A stretch of DNA of 39,374 nucleotides from a virus (Duplodnaviria; Heunggongvirae; Uroviricota; Caudoviricetes), in the IMG/VR virus record IMGVR_UViG_3300029009_000036, positions 1 through 39,374 of that record; one strand, given 5' to 3'. Below the pieces are notes generated by a model. The model was not told where the DNA came from. It worked only from the letters and a program-made list of their open reading frames with translations, and searched no databases. The translations under genes were made by a program, and so were the position numbers. Positions 1,399 to 39,374 of the stretch are shown here, piece by piece (the stretch's first letter is position 1; each line of letters begins with the position of its first letter).

Positions 1399-1459
1399 CA
1401 CTGTTTATCCATACAGTTAAAAATAATGCTGTATACAAACACAGTATGGAGGGACTTTT

Positions 1460-1708: not shown

Positions 1709-2056
1709 TAAACACGTAAAATCTGTAACGGCTGGAAATCATTCAATACTCGCACTATCGAAAGTTCACCAGCCAACCGCAGCGCGTTCTTGCATACGAC
1801 GTGGCTGCAGTCTCAACTCCGTCCCCCACCAATCATGATTGGGCAGTACCAGTACAGCACTAGTAAAAACTGGAAATAAGCAGTCTCAGCAAAATACCGG
1901 CCAGACGGTGAGAAGACAAAAAAGATACGCAAAGTAGCCGCGGCCCTTAGTGACATGAAATCCCGCTATACGGGCTTTTTTGTATCTGCACACGATTGAT
2001 TATTAGGTCCGTATAGCTAATAGTGGTCTTAACCTACATATAGAATCAGAGACTTT

Positions 2057-2752
2057 ATGAAAAAGGAAATACTCAAGGCTCTTTGCCCTACATGCGGTGG
2101 GTTACGTAACTGCACTGTGCATGGGAAGCTAACCACTAGCTGGGAGGATTCCCAATATCCAGTTTATGGGTACCATTACCATCACCTACTCCAATGCAAT
2201 GGCTGTGATACTGTCTTCTATCACCACAACGAACACTTCAGTGAGCATACTACCCACGAATATCGTGATGGTGAATTTGTAGAAACGCCTATAGATATGA
2301 TCACTACCTATCCTGCCGCTGAAACATTTCAAGCTCCGATATGGTTATCCAAGCTTGAATCAGTTGATCGTCAGCTCTTTCAAATATTTAATGAAATGTA
2401 TTCTTCATATACTTCTGACCATTTCATTCTTTCGTCCATCGGTTTACGGACGATTTTTGATCGAACTGCTGAACTGTTACAAATTCACCCCGGTTTGCCG
2501 CTTGGTGAAAAAGTTGAAAAATTAAAACAAGATGGAGTCATAGGCGACACTGAGGCATGCGTTATATCTTCAGTAATTGATGCAGGAAACGCCGCCGCAC
2601 ATCGCAGTTGGAGCCCGAATAAAAGTGAGTTCGAACAAATGCTAGAAGCTATAGAAAGTTTTGTCCAAAGAACTATCTTGGGCAAAAAATCACTTGAACA
2701 TATAACCAAACAACTCCCACCTCGGGTTACAAGACCTAAAAATAGTGCATAA
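2057..2752 (+). CDS. Hypothetical cargo protein: N-terminal Cys4 zinc ribbon plus C-terminal helical domain with GNAAAH motif (DUF4145/HEPN-like, unverified)
   Basis: 231 aa; CPTCGG...CNGC pair of CxxC motifs; C-terminal ...VIDAGNAAAHRSW... resembles the R/N..AH signature I associate with DUF4145/HEPN-type domains; lower GC than flanking phage genes. Confidence 0.6.
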   Translation: MKKEILKALCPTCGGLRNCTVHGKLTTSWEDSQYPVYGYHYHHLLQCNGCDTVFYHHNEHFSEHTTHEYRDGEFVETPIDMITTYPAAETFQAPIWLSKLESVDRQLFQIFNEMYSSYTSDHFILSSIGLRTIFDRTAELLQIHPGLPLGEKVEKLKQDGVIGDTEACVISSVIDAGNAAAHRSWSPNKSEFEQMLEAIESFVQRTILGKKSLEHITKQLPPRVTRPKNSA

Positions 2753-2778
2753 TCCGCGATCATCAATGTGGCGTAAGG

Positions 2779-3335
2779 CTATGGTTTACTTGCTACAGGG
2801 AATTTTTTATACACCGTTGAAATATCCAGATCATAAATCAGTGCGACTTGCTGCTGATATATTCCCGATTCAATCAACCTGCCAGCCTGCCCCCATTGTT
2901 CTACTGTCAGCTTTGGCTTTCGCCCACCGTTCCTCCCTTCTTGTCGTGCTGCGGCAAAGCCGCCCTAGTACGTTCGACAATAAACTCTCGCTCCATTTCA
3001 GCCAGGGCACCCATCACATGAAAGAAAAAGCGCCCCATTGGTGTGCTGGTATCAATAGCATCCGTCAGGCTGCGAAAATTAACGCCACGTTCGCGCAACT
3101 CTTCCACCAGCACGACAAGATGCCGCATACTGCGCCCCAGTCGGTCCAGTTTCCAGACCACCAGCGTGTCACCTGCCGATAATGTCCTGAGCAGCTTTTT
3201 CAGTCCTGGTCTGTCGGACTTTGTACCGCTTATCTTGTCTTCAAAAATCAGCTCACATCCTGCACAGTTCAACGCATTACGTTGTAGATCGGTGTTCTGG
3301 TCATTTGTTGATACGCGAACATAGCCAATAAGCAT
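2779..3335 (-). pseudogene. pin: Pin/Gin/Hin-family serine DNA invertase, frameshifted between catalytic and HTH domains
   Basis: ATG at 3335 with AGGAGG RBS; MLIGYVRVSTNDQNTDLQRNAL...LVVWKLDRLGRSMRHL is a canonical invertase catalytic domain; frame breaks near 2962-2968 (...VERTRAALPQHDKKGG...stop at 2907) while a shifted frame continues GGFAAARQEGRNGGKRPKLTVEQWGQAGRLIESGIYQQQVALIYDLDISTVYKKFPVASKP (HTH domain) to 2779. Confidence 0.75.
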
Positions 3336-24640: not shown

Positions 24641-25100
24641 TTACCACCCCACCAGCCTCTTTAAACCGGGCAATCAGATCACCGATTTTATGTTCATACT
24701 GACCGTAACCAGCACCCGGCAATGAAGCCCAGATATTGCTGCAACGGTCGATTGCCTGACGGATATCACCGCGATCAATCATCGGCAAAGCGCCACGCTC
24801 TTTAATCTGTTGCAATGCCACAGCGTCCTGACTTTTGGGAGAGAAGTCTTTCAGGCCAAGCTGATTACGGTAGGCATCCCACCAACGGGAAAGAAGCTGG
24901 TAACGTCCGGCAGCTGTTGATTTGAGTTTGGGGTTTAGCGTGACAAGTTTGCGAGGGTGATCGGAGTAATCAGTAAACATTTCACCACCGACAATAACAT
25001 CATAACCGTGGTTACGTGTCGGTTGTCGCCCGTTATCCGTTCCTTCTGACCATGCAACCATATCCAGGAAAGCTTTACGCTGGGAATTTAGTACCTGCAT
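24624..25100 (-). CDS. Endolysin, lambda R-like lytic transglycosylase
   Basis: 158 aa; ...QRKAFLDMVAWSEGTDNGRQPTRNHGYDVIVGGEMFTDYSDHPRKLVTLNPKLKSTAAGRYQLLSRWWDAYR... near-identical in pattern to lambda R as recalled. Confidence 0.9.
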   Translation of the reverse strand: MQVLNSQRKAFLDMVAWSEGTDNGRQPTRNHGYDVIVGGEMFTDYSDHPRKLVTLNPKLKSTAAGRYQLLSRWWDAYRNQLGLKDFSPKSQDAVALQQIKERGALPMIDRGDIRQAIDRCSNIWASLPGAGYGQYEHKIGDLIARFKEAGGVVNEVEL

Positions 25101-25103
25101 AAA

Positions 25104-25445
25104 TTACTCCTTAGAGCCACCAAACTTGTTACCGATTACTCTCATTGCAGCCCCACGAATAGCATCGACACCGATCAACCCAACACCACCACCAATGGCA
25201 ACAGAAAGCGATTTAGGCCATCCGACATACTCAAGAGCGGATGCAAAAGTCAGCGTCAGAGCGCCGCAGAGCAAAATCTCGAGCGTTTTTCGCTTCCAGC
25301 CACCACCACCGCCAAAATAGGCAATGCGCAAGCCAGCCATAACGATCGACATAATTACTGCGCCCAGCGGTGTGTCTCCACGCCACCAGCTCTGTAACAA
25401 TTCAAGTAAGTCAGACCAGGAATGAGGATCGTTATGCATTTTCAT
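25104..25445 (-). CDS. Holin with dual-start motif
   Basis: ORF opens at GTG 25454, but ATG 25445 (GGAGGTG RBS) and ATG 25439 give the M-K-M dual start seen in lambda S; hydrophobic helices follow. Confidence 0.7.
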   Translation of the reverse strand: MKMHNDPHSWSDLLELLQSWWRGDTPLGAVIMSIVMAGLRIAYFGGGGGWKRKTLEILLCGALTLTFASALEYVGWPKSLSVAIGGGVGLIGVDAIRGAAMRVIGNKFGGSKE

Positions 25446-25537
25446 AATTCCCACCTCCGGTTATCGGAAGTGCAACGAGTGAAGGGAAAGAAGCTGGTTA
25501 TAGCGCTGAGTCGCAAAAGTTGCGTAGTGCACAAAAA

Positions 25538-25565
25538 AGGCCGCCCACAGGCAGCCTCTTTTTAT
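25538..25565. terminator. Hairpin with flanking A/T runs between Cys-rich gene and holin (bidirectional terminator-like)
   Basis: aggccgcc-caca-ggcagcct (one mismatch) flanked by aaaaaa and ctttttat. Confidence 0.45.
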
Positions 25566-25576
25566 AATTCATTGAG

Positions 25577-25819
25577 TTAACAACATTTAAATGCTGGTGG
25601 TATAGAAGGTTTTTCACCAGAACGACAAGCCGGACACCATGACTGAACGATATGCCTTCCGTCTCCCATATCCCTATAACCAAAGTCTATTGTTTTATAA
25701 AAAACGTGCACTCCGGCATCAGCAGAACATTTTGGGCAAGATTTATATTCAACGCCATCTTGTTCAACTTCTCGTGAATAACTTAATGACTGCTCACAAA
25801 CAGAACAACGCTCCACCAT
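25577..25819 (-). CDS. Small Cys-rich (putative zinc-binding) protein, first late gene after tR'
   Basis: 80 aa, ATG at 25819 with AGGAGAG RBS; CxxC at residues 5-8, 28-31, 62-65 plus C-terminal CC. Confidence 0.45.
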   Translation of the reverse strand: MVERCSVCEQSLSYSREVEQDGVEYKSCPKCSADAGVHVFYKTIDFGYRDMGDGRHIVQSWCPACRSGEKPSIPPAFKCC

Positions 25820-25969
25820 ATATGCTCTCCTGTTTTTGATAGAGATTTATGGGTAGCAATTCCATTCAAAAGAAACATTGAAGGGTGTCACTTTTTCAAA
25901 ATGAGCGTAGCTGGCTGCCAGTTTTTTGTACAACACACTTTAAGGAAGGAGAGCCTTAAAAACACAATT

Positions 25970-26000
25970 GACATCAATAAAAAACCGCTCGGTGGCGGTT
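25970..26000 (-). terminator. tR'-like intrinsic terminator of the short late-promoter transcript
   Basis: Stem aaaccgc/gcggttt with 6-nt loop followed on minus strand by UUUUAUU; ~45-70 nt downstream of the pR'-like promoter. Confidence 0.45.
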
Positions 26001-29412: not shown

Positions 29413-30062
29413 GCCGCCATCTCCCTGACCAGTTTTTCCGCCTGCTGGCGAACCTGCGCCAGAAACGCCTCACCACATGCCTCAAGTTCATCGCGCCCGA
29501 TGTAGCTGATTGCCGGTCCCTTCCAGGTCTTATCGAAAACAGCAATAGCACCAGCGAAGAAAGCGCCTGTCGGCACCTGCTTCTCATCCTTCGGGATAAA
29601 CCAGGCAGGCAGTTCAAAACCAATACGCCCGCGAATAAAAGCAATATGGTCCGCATCTTCCGGCCACCACACTTCGCTGGTGGCAGCTTTGATCAGGAAA
29701 ACATAGCGCCCACCCTTATCACGCATGGCACTGGCATGTTTCATGATGTAACGCATGCCGGTGATGTATTGCCCCTCATGCTGACTGGCGCGACTGTATG
29801 GGGGATTACCAAAGGCAGCCCCTTTAAGCTCCGCAAGACGTTCTGACCAGTCATGCGCCAGCGCGTTGTCTTCCGCCGTGTAATACGCAGCACATTTGGC
29901 GTTATCACCGTCAGTGAACAGATCCAGAACAAACGGGCCAAACAGGGTGTTAATTCCCCAGAAAATGTTGTCCGGCGTGCGCCACTGATCACCTACTTCC
30001 TTCAGTTCATGGGCTGGTTTGTTCCGCAGTTCCACCAGCGCCTGGCAATATTTATTACTCAT
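29409..30062 (-). CDS. Orphan DNA N6-adenine methyltransferase (phage Dam-like)
   Basis: ATG at 30062 overlaps upstream stop (TAATG); NPPY motif in ...FGNPPYSRASQ... Confidence 0.8.
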   Translation of the reverse strand: MSNKYCQALVELRNKPAHELKEVGDQWRTPDNIFWGINTLFGPFVLDLFTDGDNAKCAAYYTAEDNALAHDWSERLAELKGAAFGNPPYSRASQHEGQYITGMRYIMKHASAMRDKGGRYVFLIKAATSEVWWPEDADHIAFIRGRIGFELPAWFIPKDEKQVPTGAFFAGAIAVFDKTWKGPAISYIGRDELEACGEAFLAQVRQQAEKLVREMAA

Positions 30063-30550
30063 TAAGCCCCCACGTAATTCCCTGACAGATACCACTCATC
30101 ACCCGATACAGCGCGCTTGCTGCTTTTCCGTAAACACTGCTCACGACGCGCCAGAAAATTGTTTCGTTCTGGCTGGGAGTGGCTTTCACGGAATGCCGCT
30201 ATCCACACCGTTGCAGCACGACGGTATAAGCCCCTGGACTCCAGTTCTTCCGCCTGGCGGGTCAGGCACAAAATCACCCGGGGATCGTTAGTGCCGACAT
30301 AGAAATTGCGCACAGGTCTGGTTTCACGAACTGGTTGTGGTTCCGGCTCCTGCGCTCTCTCAGTCAGGCGTGGGAAATGTCTGCGTGTATCTCCTTCACA
30401 ACGGTGAGCCACACGCCCACTCTGACGTAACTTGCTTGCTGACTGCAGAACGCGCTGCCGTGAGTAACCTGCAAAAGCATCCGCAATGTCTCCGGAAGTA
30501 CACCCCGGATGGGCTTCAATGAATTTCTGAACGTCATTCAAAAGACTCAT
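30062..30550 (-). CDS. Hypothetical early protein (YfdN-like; PerC/ANR-like motif, unverified)
   Basis: 162 aa from ATG 30550 (GTG 30556 alternative); ...AEELESRGLYRRAATVWIAAF... resembles the PerC-type motif; same size and neighbourhood as K-12 CPS-53 yfdN from memory. Confidence 0.5.
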   Translation of the reverse strand: MSLLNDVQKFIEAHPGCTSGDIADAFAGYSRQRVLQSASKLRQSGRVAHRCEGDTRRHFPRLTERAQEPEPQPVRETRPVRNFYVGTNDPRVILCLTRQAEELESRGLYRRAATVWIAAFRESHSQPERNNFLARREQCLRKSSKRAVSGDEWYLSGNYVGA

Positions 30551-30552
30551 GA

Positions 30553-31371
30553 TCACCCCCTGAATCCTGCCGGGATCTGGCTGTAGTCCACATTGTCGTA
30601 ACTGGCTTTGAAGTACGGGTCTTCACGTCTGGCTGCAGATACCGCAGGAACTTCCCAGGATTCTTCGAAATGACGATCCGGACCAAAGAACGTGACAGCC
30701 TGTTTCACAAATTGTGTGCCGCTGTTACCCATCGCAGATACCCAGCCCGCGTAGCGTTTCACACCTTCCAGCATGGTTTCGGGGTTTACCCCCTCATTCA
30801 AACGGGCTTTCCAGGCTTTGAAGGCTGCAGATTTTGAATTGCCACCAGCACGTTTGGGATATGCCAGCCATGCCTGCTCAAACTCCGGAGAGTATTCCGG
30901 TCGGTTTGAACGAACTCGCACGGACTCATCAACTGATGCACCAACAGCTATTGGTTCATTGACTGGTTCTTTGACTGGTTCAAAAGAGTGACTGGTTCTG
31001 GGTGAATCTCCTGCACTACCCCCTGGTGCAACTCCTGCACTACCTAGTGAATTTGCTGCACCAGATAGTGAATTATTTGCACTACCCCCTAGTGAATCTC
31101 CTGCACCATCCAGATGAAGGAGATAGATATTACTTGAGTTACCTTTTTCACCTTTCCGGGTGACTTTTTTCACCAGCCCGGACTCACAAAGGGCCGCAAT
31201 ATGATTCATCACAGAACGTTTGCTAATCTCGCACTGGTCAGCAATATGCTGGTAGCTGGGCCAGCACTCACCCTGATCGCTGGCATTATCAGCCAGCTTG
31301 ATCAGAACCAGTTTTCGCAATGGATTACCCACTCGAATTTTCATCGCTTTAACCATCAGCTCCATACTCAT
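30553..31371 (-). CDS. Replication initiation protein (N-terminal HTH, lambda O-like organisation)
   Basis: 272 aa, ATG at 31371; N-terminal winged-helix-like region; central low-complexity linker GDSLGGSANNSLSGAANSLGSAGVAPGGSAGDSP encoded by iteron repeats. Confidence 0.75.
   Translation of the reverse strand: MSMELMVKAMKIRVGNPLRKLVLIKLADNASDQGECWPSYQHIADQCEISKRSVMNHIAALCESGLVKKVTRKGEKGNSSNIYLLHLDGAGDSLGGSANNSLSGAANSLGSAGVAPGGSAGDSPRTSHSFEPVKEPVNEPIAVGASVDESVRVRSNRPEYSPEFEQAWLAYPKRAGGNSKSAAFKAWKARLNEGVNPETMLEGVKRYAGWVSAMGNSGTQFVKQAVTFFGPDRHFEESWEVPAVSAARREDPYFKASYDNVDYSQIPAGFRG
30959..31110. repeat. Iteron cluster (putative origin of replication) inside replication gene
   Basis: Three copies of tgactggttc (30960-30969, 30972-30981, 30989-30998) followed by five ~21-24-bp repeats of agtgaat..ctgcac(t/c)a between 31002 and 31110. 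Confidence 0.6.
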
Positions 31372-39184: not shown

Positions 39185-39374
39185 TTACCAGCGGTAATCA
39201 TGGCGTTTTTCCCAACTATCAACCTCTTTTTCTGCCTGATCTTTCTGATAACCGTAGCGTTCCTGGATTTTACCCACTAACTGATCACGTTTTCCTTCAA
39301 TGATCGTCATATCATCATCGGTCAGTTTGCCCCATTGCTCTTTCACTTTACCTTTAAACTGTTTCCAGTTACCG
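39185..39374 (-). CDS. yjbJ: YjbJ (CsbD-like stress protein), 3' part; start lies beyond window
   Basis: Minus-strand translation ...GNWKQFKGKVKEQWGKLTDDDMTIIEGKRDQLVGKIQERYGYQKDQAEKEVDSWEKRHDYRW-stop. Confidence 0.8.
   Translation of the reverse strand, partial: GNWKQFKGKVKEQWGKLTDDDMTIIEGKRDQLVGKIQERYGYQKDQAEKEVDSWEKRHDYRW

What the first reader, a model, noticed from the sequence alone, without database searches (positions are those of the whole stretch)
2057..2752. Zn-ribbon plus HEPN-like cargo gene in the slot beside the pin invertase
This 231-aa gene sits between dinI and pin, outside the structural and regulatory modules, where E. coli e14 carries mcrA next to pinE (from memory). It combines an N-terminal Cys4 zinc ribbon with a helical domain bearing a GNAAAH motif that I associate with DUF4145/HEPN-type domains found in abortive-infection and restriction contexts. 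Candidate defence effector; domain assignment unverified.
Basis: partly seen in the sequence, partly recalled or inferred. Interest (0 to 1): 0.65.

Follow-up and report, generated by a model that had tools for sequence, protein, structure and literature searches.

The report
Prophage zinc-ribbon HEPN candidate defence gene
A 231-residue gene carried as a 1-kb cargo cassette in an E. coli prophage joins a zinc-ribbon domain to a HEPN (DUF4145) domain, the same layout as the proven anti-phage RNase RAZR, but it belongs to a separate, untested family that lacks one of RAZR's two catalytic residues.

Summary

A zinc ribbon plus DUF4145 is the architecture of RAZR/PD-T7-4 (Nature 2026), an abortive-infection RNase switched on by ring-shaped phage proteins.

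This protein is not a RAZR orthologue. PADLOC's PD-T7-4 model does not hit it. Family profiles do not reach the RAZR chain in the PDB. The Arg eight residues before the catalytic His (R146 in RAZR, essential there) is T/V/I/A/L in all 118 relatives examined, and a family-specific H-R-G-W-x-P signature follows the His instead.

The gene sits on a 991-bp cassette that a sister prophage lacks; e14 carries mcrA at the equivalent position. Homologues lie at prophage ends and beside Gabija, a retron, Mrr and AbiTii.

Best reading: a RAZR-like single-gene defence. This is a new variant of a known kind, of moderate interest, and its function is untested.

The parts
1804..2794 (.). 991-bp cargo (moron) cassette that carries the gene. 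A sister dusA prophage (E. coli CX21) lacks it; there dinI and pinE are separated by about 21 bp.
   Evidence: blastn of the window against L011: homology ends at 1803 and resumes at 2795. L011 annotation. GC is 41-46% against 55-60% in the structural genes.
1812..1985 (+). Degenerate copy (about 80% identity) of the 3' end of ssrA (tmRNA) and the region downstream of it. It includes a short hairpin plus T-run (1961-1985) that looks like a terminator and would insulate the gene from dinI read-through.
   Evidence: the alignment to the ssrA-ypjA intergenic region runs to 1983. The hairpin is read directly from the sequence. No intact tmRNA or tRNA gene. No Rfam hit.
1986..2056 (+). 71-bp region that must hold the gene's own promoter and 5' UTR. 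This is inferred: only weak sigma-70-like hexamers are present (TTGATT 1996-2001, TAGAAT 2042-2047).
   Evidence: Sequence. The consensus scan reported no promoter here at its threshold.
2057..2752 (+). CDS of 231 aa encoding the zinc-ribbon plus DUF4145/HEPN protein (RefSeq WP_001514810.1, annotated 'DUF4145 domain-containing protein').
2057..2311 (+). N-terminal zinc-ribbon domain (aa 1-85): a five-stranded beta domain with Cys knuckles C10/C13 (nt 2084-2095) and C47/C50 (nt 2195-2206). Proposed sensor domain.
   Evidence: AF2 model with block pLDDT 82-95. Cys conservation at least 99%. More variable than the HEPN part.
2312..2344 (+). Interdomain linker (aa 86-96) with conserved P86, P94 and W96.
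2345..2713 (+). Helical HEPN/DUF4145 domain (aa 97-219). Helix-2 carries R131-T-x-F-D135 (R131 codon 2447-2449) and K152 lies in the helix-2/3 insert.
2585..2617 (+). [quoted passage not shown] The canonical upstream Arg (position 174, codon 2576-2578) is Ile.
   Evidence: Motif position as described for HEPN domains in PMC3710099.
1460..1708 (+). Left neighbour: DinI-like gene with two perfect LexA boxes at 1401-1416 and 1429-1444. Context only, not part of the cassette.
2779..3335 (-). Right neighbour: pin-type DNA invertase, convergent with the gene and frameshifted in this window. Context only.
   Evidence: The gene is intact in strain SX12.

Best explanation
The gene is a stand-alone, prophage-borne anti-phage defence gene built like RAZR/PD-T7-4. 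An N-terminal Cys4 zinc-ribbon domain would act as the sensor that binds a protein of an infecting phage. A C-terminal DUF4145/HEPN domain would act as a metal-independent RNase, dimerising or oligomerising to form a composite active site around H182. Once activated it would cut cellular and phage RNA, stop translation and abort the infection, protecting the lysogen population. Shown here: the gene, its two domains, the HEPN fold, the pattern of invariant residues, its cassette-like insertion in a cargo slot, and its association with prophage ends and defence genes in other genomes. Inferred by analogy with RAZR: RNase activity, phage-protein sensing through the zinc ribbon, activation by assembly, and the abortive outcome. 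The family lacks the Arg equivalent to RAZR R146 and has its own invariant R183/W185 after the His. I therefore expect the catalytic basic residue to come from R183, or from R131 or K152, and I expect the trigger to differ from RAZR's.
For: Pfam DUF4145 hit at 39 bits against a 23.1 cutoff.

H182 is invariant. [quoted passage not shown]

RAZR has the same ZnR + DUF4145 layout, is a proven Abi RNase, has a conserved linker and has the zinc-finger domain as its most variable part. Here the linker is also conserved (P86, P94, W96). The zinc-finger domain is more variable than the HEPN domain (entropy 2.69 against 2.13 bits; lower identity in 99 of 117 relatives).

The gene lies on a 991-bp low-GC cassette in a slot that is empty in one sister prophage. 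Other sister prophages carry morons after the same int-dinI module, and e14 carries mcrA after pinE.

Homologues sit at the outer ends of P2-like, lambda-like and P22-like prophages. Others lie next to Gabija, a retron III-A PRTase and a PD-T4-6-like kinase in Burkholderia, next to Mrr and an integrase in Rahnella, and next to an AbiTii protein.

There is no partner gene in the cassette, which fits a single-gene system.
Against: PADLOC 2.0 gives no hit for this protein at E <= 1, and only 3 of 118 relatives touch the PD-T7-4 model, at E >= 0.02.

Family profiles do not reach the RAZR chain in the PDB sequence set at E <= 10, although that set holds 9Y6U/9Y9C.

The position eight residues before the His is never Arg in the family. 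The Pfam model strongly prefers Arg there (I174R adds 5.8 bits), and RAZR R146A abolishes defence.

The zinc-ribbon domain is larger (about 85 aa against about 65 aa) and could not be compared with RAZR's.

The slot also carries non-defence cargo, such as NleG-like effectors and a methyltransferase.

No homologue exists in 50,697 deposited phage genomes.

There is no expression or phenotype evidence.
Confidence: 0.6

Rival explanations
1. The HEPN domain has lost RNase activity because the canonical Arg is absent. The protein would then act without cleaving RNA: as an RNA- or nucleotide-binding regulator, as a superinfection-exclusion factor, or as a sensor that needs an unlinked effector.
For: Position 174 is T/V/I/A/L in 118/118 relatives. 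The DUF4145 model expects Arg there. R146A inactivates RAZR. HEPN families that lack the motif are often non-catalytic (PMC3710099).
Against: H182, R131 and W185 are invariant, and R183, K152 and D135 are conserved at 96% or more, in a family with 27% mean column identity. That pattern suggests a maintained active site. PMC3710099 describes HEPN families in which another conserved basic residue replaces the motif Arg. Homologues show no conserved partner gene.
Confidence: 0.15
2. It is a toxin-like addiction or anti-plasmid module rather than an anti-phage one. One version: a HEPN toxin kept silent by autoinhibition that stabilises the prophage. Another version: an Ishtar-like barrier to conjugative plasmids.
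For: DUF4145/HEPN proteins can block plasmids (Ishtar). HEPN toxins are common in TA systems. Homologues occur on Yersinia plasmids, including pMT1.
Against: There is no MNT or other antitoxin gene in the cassette or next to homologues. Ishtar places the HEPN domain at the N-terminus with a different C-terminal domain. The closest architecture, RAZR, is an anti-phage system and is not toxic on its own.
Confidence: 0.12
3. It is a DNA-binding or regulatory phage protein, as the PHROG annotation states.
For: phrog_1305 ('DNA binding protein') matches at E = 5e-43 over the full length. Zinc ribbons often bind nucleic acids.
Against: The PHROG label is an annotation, not a tested function. The C-terminal two-thirds of the protein is a HEPN fold. 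The gene is an optional cassette present in 34 of 712 genomes that share the int-dinI module, so it is not part of the phage's regulatory circuit. It lies outside the immunity region.
Confidence: 0.05

Closest known systems
RAZR / PD-T7-4 (ring-activated zinc-finger RNase; E. coli UMB1727; PDB 9Y9C, 9Y6U)
   Same: Single-gene system of about 220-230 aa. It has an N-terminal Cys4 zinc-ribbon domain, a conserved linker and a C-terminal DUF4145/HEPN domain with an essential His at the end of helix-3. The zinc-finger domain is the most variable part. It is carried on or near mobile elements.
   Different: Not detected by the PD-T7-4 HMM, and family profiles do not reach the RAZR chain. The zinc-finger domain is about 20 residues longer with long beta-hairpins. 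The Arg eight residues before the His (R146 in RAZR) is absent, and a family-specific H-R-G-W-x-P follows the His. Trigger, oligomer state and RNase activity are unknown. I could not obtain the RAZR sequence, so no residue-level alignment was made.
DS-38 (DefensePredictor-validated E. coli system; zinc finger + HEPN; WP_001313577.1)
   Same: Another validated E. coli defence protein that combines a zinc finger with a HEPN domain. Its authors describe its Zn-finger as distinct from that of PD-T7-4.
   Different: DS-38 is encoded by a 1101-nt gene (about 366 aa) with a different accession, so it is not this protein.
Other DUF4145/HEPN defence proteins: BxaP (BREX-associated) and Ishtar1 (anti-plasmid)
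   Same: They use a DUF4145-type HEPN domain in defence against mobile elements.
   Different: In both, the HEPN domain is N-terminal and fused to other domains (HEAT-like, or a beta/alpha domain). Neither has a zinc ribbon.
McrA of prophage e14
   Same: It occupies the equivalent position: the cargo gene immediately beyond the pin invertase and the invertible tail-fibre segment of a prophage with the same ymfQ-stf-tfa-pin module.
   Different: McrA is an unrelated protein, an HNH type IV restriction enzyme. The similarity is positional only.
HEPN-MNT toxin-antitoxin toxins (e.g. SO_3166 HEPT, 5yep; 7ae2)
   Different: No MNT antitoxin gene is present. An added zinc-ribbon domain is present. 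The motif lacks the canonical R-x4-H arginine.

Membership tests
DUF4145 (PF13643), HEPN superfamily | Match to the Pfam model above the gathering score | tested here: met
   39 bits against 23.1, E = 8.8e-10, aa 115-199 on profile positions 4-87 of 88.
DUF4145 (PF13643), HEPN superfamily | [quoted passage not shown] | tested here: met
DUF4145 (PF13643), HEPN superfamily | Catalytic His at the end of helix-3 | tested here: met
   H182 is invariant in 118/118. H182A costs 9.8 bits against the Pfam model. Its position matches the description in PMC3710099.
DUF4145 (PF13643), HEPN superfamily | Conserved Arg upstream of the His (Rx4-6H; in DUF4145 it is R-x-x-G-N-x-x-x-H) | tested here: not met
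   There is no Arg at any of positions 170-181. Position 174 is T/V/I/A/L in 118/118. In-silico I174R raises the Pfam score by 5.8 bits, so the model expects Arg there.
RAZR / PD-T7-4 | N-terminal Cys4 zinc-ribbon domain followed by a C-terminal DUF4145 domain in one protein of about 220 aa | tested here: met
   compared with the description in PMC13017515.
RAZR / PD-T7-4 | Sequence match to the family model (PADLOC PDLC04109) or to the RAZR chain | tested here: not met
   No hit at E <= 1 for this protein, and 3 of 118 relatives at E >= 0.02. phmmer and hmmsearch against PDB sequences, which include 9Y6U/9Y9C, give no RAZR hit at E <= 10.
RAZR / PD-T7-4 | Both catalytic residues (R146 and H154, eight residues apart) | tested here: not met
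   The His equivalent is present and the Arg equivalent is absent. The equivalence rests on spacing and on the shared Pfam model, not on a direct alignment to RAZR.
RAZR / PD-T7-4 | Zinc-finger domain is the most variable region; linker is conserved | tested here: met
   Mean column entropy is 2.69 bits for the zinc-finger domain and 2.13 bits for HEPN. Zinc-finger identity is lower than HEPN identity in 99 of 117 relatives. Linker residues P86, P94 and W96 are conserved at 92% or more.
RAZR / PD-T7-4 | Activation by assembly around ring-shaped phage proteins; non-specific ssRNA cleavage; abortive infection | not testable with these tools
   This needs phage challenge, escape mutants, biochemistry and cryo-EM.
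HEPN-MNT toxin-antitoxin | Adjacent minimal nucleotidyltransferase antitoxin gene | tested here: not met
   No such ORF in the cassette or beside homologues.
Prophage moron / cargo cassette | Discrete insertion absent from sister prophages, with deviant composition, at a module boundary | tested here: met
   The 991-bp insert is absent from CX21. GC is 41-46%. It is present in 34 genomes, whereas 712 carry the int-dinI module.

The most novel reading that the evidence does not exclude
This is the E. coli representative of a large, uncharacterised sister family of RAZR (at least 287 clusters at 50% identity with E <= 1e-30). The family would have rebuilt the HEPN active site around an H-R-G-W-x-P signature in place of the upstream Arg. 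It would also use an enlarged beta-rich zinc-ribbon sensor, recognising a different class of phage trigger or activating by a different assembly geometry than RAZR's 24-mer ring.
Probability: 0.35. Interest if true: 0.6.

Novelty: new variant of a known kind. Interest (0 to 1): 0.42.

Why it matters
If the prediction holds, a widespread protein family would be added to the catalogue of single-gene abortive-infection systems. PADLOC 2.0 does not currently call this family, and RefSeq annotates it only as a DUF4145 protein.

Comparing it with RAZR would show how one sensor-plus-HEPN design is retuned. That covers which residues can substitute for the canonical Arg, and how changes in the zinc ribbon change which phage proteins are sensed.

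It would also add a defined example of the pin-adjacent slot of e14/SfV-like prophages acting as an exchangeable cargo position, with mcrA, effectors, a methyltransferase or this gene. Finally, it would give a traceable case of a cargo cassette that appears to have moved from the ssrA locus into a dusA prophage.

Tried and rejected

2. Identity with DS-38 of DefensePredictor is rejected: DS-38 is a gene of about 366 aa with a different accession. WP_001514810 was not found in the held, truncated supplement text.

3. tblastn against 50,697 phage records gave no match.

4. Rfam and tRNA/tmRNA scans of the upstream region found nothing. The ssrA similarity came from blastn instead.

5. The afdb50 fold library was unavailable. 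BFVD gave two unnamed full-length matches only.

6. A partner gene (antitoxin or effector) was considered and rejected: none is in the cassette and none is conserved beside homologues.

7. The 'plasmid' copy pSX12-2 is a chromosomal fragment, not a plasmid.

8. The consensus promoter scan found nothing in the 71 bp upstream of the ATG.

Full report
**The locus**

The window is a complete prophage of about 40 kb, integrated at dusA in E. coli. It has an HK97-type head, a Mu/SfV-like contractile tail and an e14-like ymfQ-stf-tfa-pin module. It is 99.9% identical to a prophage of strain HH107.

Reading from attL, the genes are:
- integrase, 301-1398;
- a DinI-like gene, 1460-1708, preceded by two perfect LexA boxes at 1401-1416 and 1429-1444;
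- the ORF in question, 2057-2752 (+);
- convergent with it, a pin-type invertase at about 2779-3335, which is frameshifted here;
- the invertible tail-fibre segment.

**The observation**

The ORF is real. RefSeq already labels it a 'DUF4145 domain-containing protein' (WP_001514810.1).

Library results:
- Pfam gives DUF4145 at 39 bits against a cutoff of 23.1 (E = 8.8e-10), covering residues 115-199.
- PADLOC 2.0 gives nothing.
- PHROGs gives phrog_1305, 'DNA binding protein', at 5e-43.
- NCBIfam gives nothing meaningful.

An AlphaFold2 model built on 16 homologues has mean pLDDT 83. It shows a five-stranded beta domain (residues 5-85), a linker (86-96) and a helical bundle (97-219). The two Cys pairs, C10/C13 and C47/C50, sit at hairpin turns, which is the zinc-ribbon arrangement.

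**The family**

A profile search of 1.84 billion cluster representatives returned 2693 hits at E <= 1e-3, 1381 at <= 1e-10 and 287 at <= 1e-30. Nearly all of the best 150 match over essentially the full length of the profile, both domains; a few are truncated at the N-terminal end.

In an alignment of 118 members (mean column identity 27%), the invariant or near-invariant positions are:
- the four Cys;
- P86, P94 and W96 in the linker;
- R131-T-x-F-D135 on helix-2;
- K152 in the helix-2/3 insert;
- A176-G-[S/N]-A-A-A-H182-R183-G-W185-x-P187 at the end of helix-3;
- E200 and P221.

The zinc-ribbon domain is more variable than the HEPN domain. Mean column entropy is 2.69 against 2.13 bits, and identity is lower in 99 of 117 relatives. 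Some members of 380-507 aa carry extra N-terminal Lar-like zinc ribbons.

**The active site**

According to PMC3710099, the HEPN Rx4-6H motif lies at the end of helix-3. A second conserved residue on helix-2 faces it, and some families replace the motif Arg with another conserved basic residue. H182 is exactly at that place.

To learn what the Pfam DUF4145 model expects, I scored point mutants of the protein against it. The wild type scores 39.0 bits.

| Mutant | Score (bits) | Change |
|---|---|---|
| H182A | 29.2 | -9.8 |
| R131A | 32.5 | -6.5 |
| N178A | 33.2 | -5.8 |
| K152A | 35.8 | -3.2 |
| G177R | 36.7 | -2.3 |
| I174R | 44.8 | +5.8 |
| R183A | 38.7 | -0.3 |
| W185A | 40.8 | +1.8 |

The generic DUF4145 signature is therefore R(helix-2) ... 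R-x-x-G-N-x-x-x-H. That gives the Arg-to-His spacing of eight that RAZR shows (R146, H154).

This family keeps R131, K152, G177, N178 and H182. It has T/V/I/A/L at position 174 in 118 of 118 members, and it adds its own R183 and W185 after the His. In RAZR, R146A abolishes defence. So either another basic residue (R183, R131 or K152) has taken over, or the chemistry differs.

**Known relatives**

RAZR, formerly PD-T7-4, is described in Zhang et al., Nature 2026 (PMC13017515). It is a single protein with an N-terminal Cys4 zinc-ribbon domain, a conserved linker and a C-terminal DUF4145/HEPN RNase. It is not toxic alone. It is activated when 24 copies assemble around ring-shaped phage proteins (an Erf-like recombinase or a portal). 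It then cuts ssRNA non-specifically and aborts infection, and its zinc-finger domain sets the specificity.

The architecture is the same here, but membership fails on sequence:
- The PADLOC PD-T7-4 model does not hit this protein, and it touches only 3 of 118 relatives, at E >= 0.02.
- Neither family profile reaches the RAZR chain in the PDB sequence set at E <= 10, although that set contains 9Y6U/9Y9C.

DS-38, a validated E. coli 'HEPN plus zinc finger' system whose authors stress that its zinc finger differs from PD-T7-4's, is a different protein of about 366 aa. BxaP and Ishtar1 use DUF4145 in other architectures.

**Genomic context**

The gene occurs in 34 of 5426 complete E. coli genomes, always at 99.7% identity or more. 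In every case examined the order is dusA-int-dinI-gene-pin. The int-dinI module itself is in 712 genomes.

What follows that module varies among sister prophages:
- nothing in strain CX21, where dinI abuts pinE;
- a SAM methyltransferase;
- three NleG-like DUF1076 genes in O157:H7.

Comparison with CX21 delimits a 991-bp insert, window 1804-2794, with GC of 41-46% against 55-60% in the structural genes. In e14, which shares the ymfQ-stf-tfa-pin module, the gene after pinE is mcrA.

Homologues of 63-70% identity in Citrobacter and Enterobacter lie at the outermost end of P2-like, lambda-like and P22-like prophages. Their neighbours are DinI, UmuD-like, Gtr and Macro genes.

More distant homologues lie:
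- in a Burkholderia island beside Gabija (GajA 5.7e-49, GajB 7.8e-25), a retron III-A PRTase (7.9e-105) with a reverse-transcriptase (RVT_1) gene, and a PD-T4-6-like kinase;
- in Rahnella beside Mrr, an integrase and a second family member;
- in an icd-integrated prophage beside an AbiTii protein.

Plasmid copies exist in Yersinia, including pMT1. No deposited phage genome has a homologue.

**Origin of the cassette**

The 253 bp upstream of the ATG contains a copy, about 80% identical, of the last bases of ssrA and the roughly 150 nt that follow it in E. coli. That includes a hairpin plus T-run at 1961-1985. No intact tmRNA gene is present.

The simplest reading is that the gene once lay directly downstream of ssrA, a classic island integration site, in another enterobacterium, and that it was captured together with that flank. 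The hairpin would insulate the gene from SOS-driven dinI transcription. If so, the gene's promoter must lie in the 71 bp before the ATG, where only weak sigma-70-like hexamers are visible.

**Verdict**

The most likely function is a RAZR-like, single-gene, abortive-infection RNase carried as a prophage moron (confidence about 0.6). The sensing, activation and cleavage steps are inferred by analogy, not shown.

It is not a RAZR orthologue. It represents a separate, large family with a rebuilt motif and a larger zinc-ribbon domain, so I class it as a new variant of a known kind. Interest is moderate. The architecture and its defence role are now established by RAZR, but this family is untested, is not called by PADLOC 2.0, and offers a natural experiment on HEPN active-site plasticity and sensor retargeting.

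Noticed in passing
window 1812-1985: A degenerate copy (about 80% identity) of the 3' end of ssrA (tmRNA) and its downstream region, including a hairpin plus T-run, sits just upstream of the gene inside the 991-bp cassette. In E. coli the same sequence lies between ssrA and ypjA, or at the right end of CP4-57. This suggests the cassette came from an ssrA-adjacent locus.
   Followed up: yes
window 1401-1416 and 1429-1444: Two perfect LexA boxes (CTGT-N8-ACAG) lie directly upstream of the DinI-like gene (ATG at 1460). This prophage cargo gene is probably SOS-induced.
   Followed up: partly
window 2779-3335 (-): The pin-type invertase is frameshifted in this window and in strains HH107 and 720632, but intact in strain SX12. 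The tail-fibre inversion switch is probably frozen in this prophage.
   Followed up: partly
L002 38949-39997 (window about 38925 to beyond the end at 39374): At the opposite prophage end, next to the dusA remnant, lie a Panacea-domain protein and a small upstream ORF. This could be a PanA-type toxin-antitoxin or defence pair, and it is only partly inside the window.
   Followed up: no
L011, L012, L013, L014 (sister dusA prophages); L020 (e14): The position after dinI, or beside pin, is an exchangeable cargo slot. It is empty in CX21, holds a SAM-dependent methyltransferase in two strains, holds three NleG-like DUF1076 genes in O157:H7 SS17, and holds mcrA in e14.
   Followed up: yes
P0078, P0100, P0105, P0159 (proteins of 380-507 aa): Long family members carry one or more extra N-terminal zinc-ribbon modules with weak similarity to Lar (restriction alleviation), ahead of the complete ZnR-HEPN unit.
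   Followed up: partly
plasmid hits H41-H80 (e.g. NC_004838.1 50257-50907): Yersinia pestis pMT1 and Y. enterocolitica plasmids encode homologues that are 41-46% identical, annotated only as DUF4145 proteins.
   Followed up: no
L018/L019 6694-8690: In an icd-integrated prophage, a 67%-identical homologue sits directly after an AbiTii-domain gene and an icd remnant. This is the same prophage end where e14 carries mcrA.
   Followed up: partly
L017 3304-4050 and 8001-8764: A Rahnella island holds two paralogues of the family within 5 kb, together with an Mrr-type endonuclease and an integrase.
   Followed up: partly
NZ_CP142787.1 (pSX12-2), L021: This record is deposited as a 55.6-kb plasmid. It is actually a chromosomal fragment (uvrA ... 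dnaB ... dusA plus the prophage), which points to an assembly artefact.
   Followed up: partly
window about 24940-26000 and 29900-30560 (from L002 24967-26019 and 29927-30580): The prophage encodes two DNA methyltransferases. One lies next to the lysis genes and the other is an N6-adenine methyltransferase in the early region. Both are possible anti-restriction cargo.
   Followed up: no
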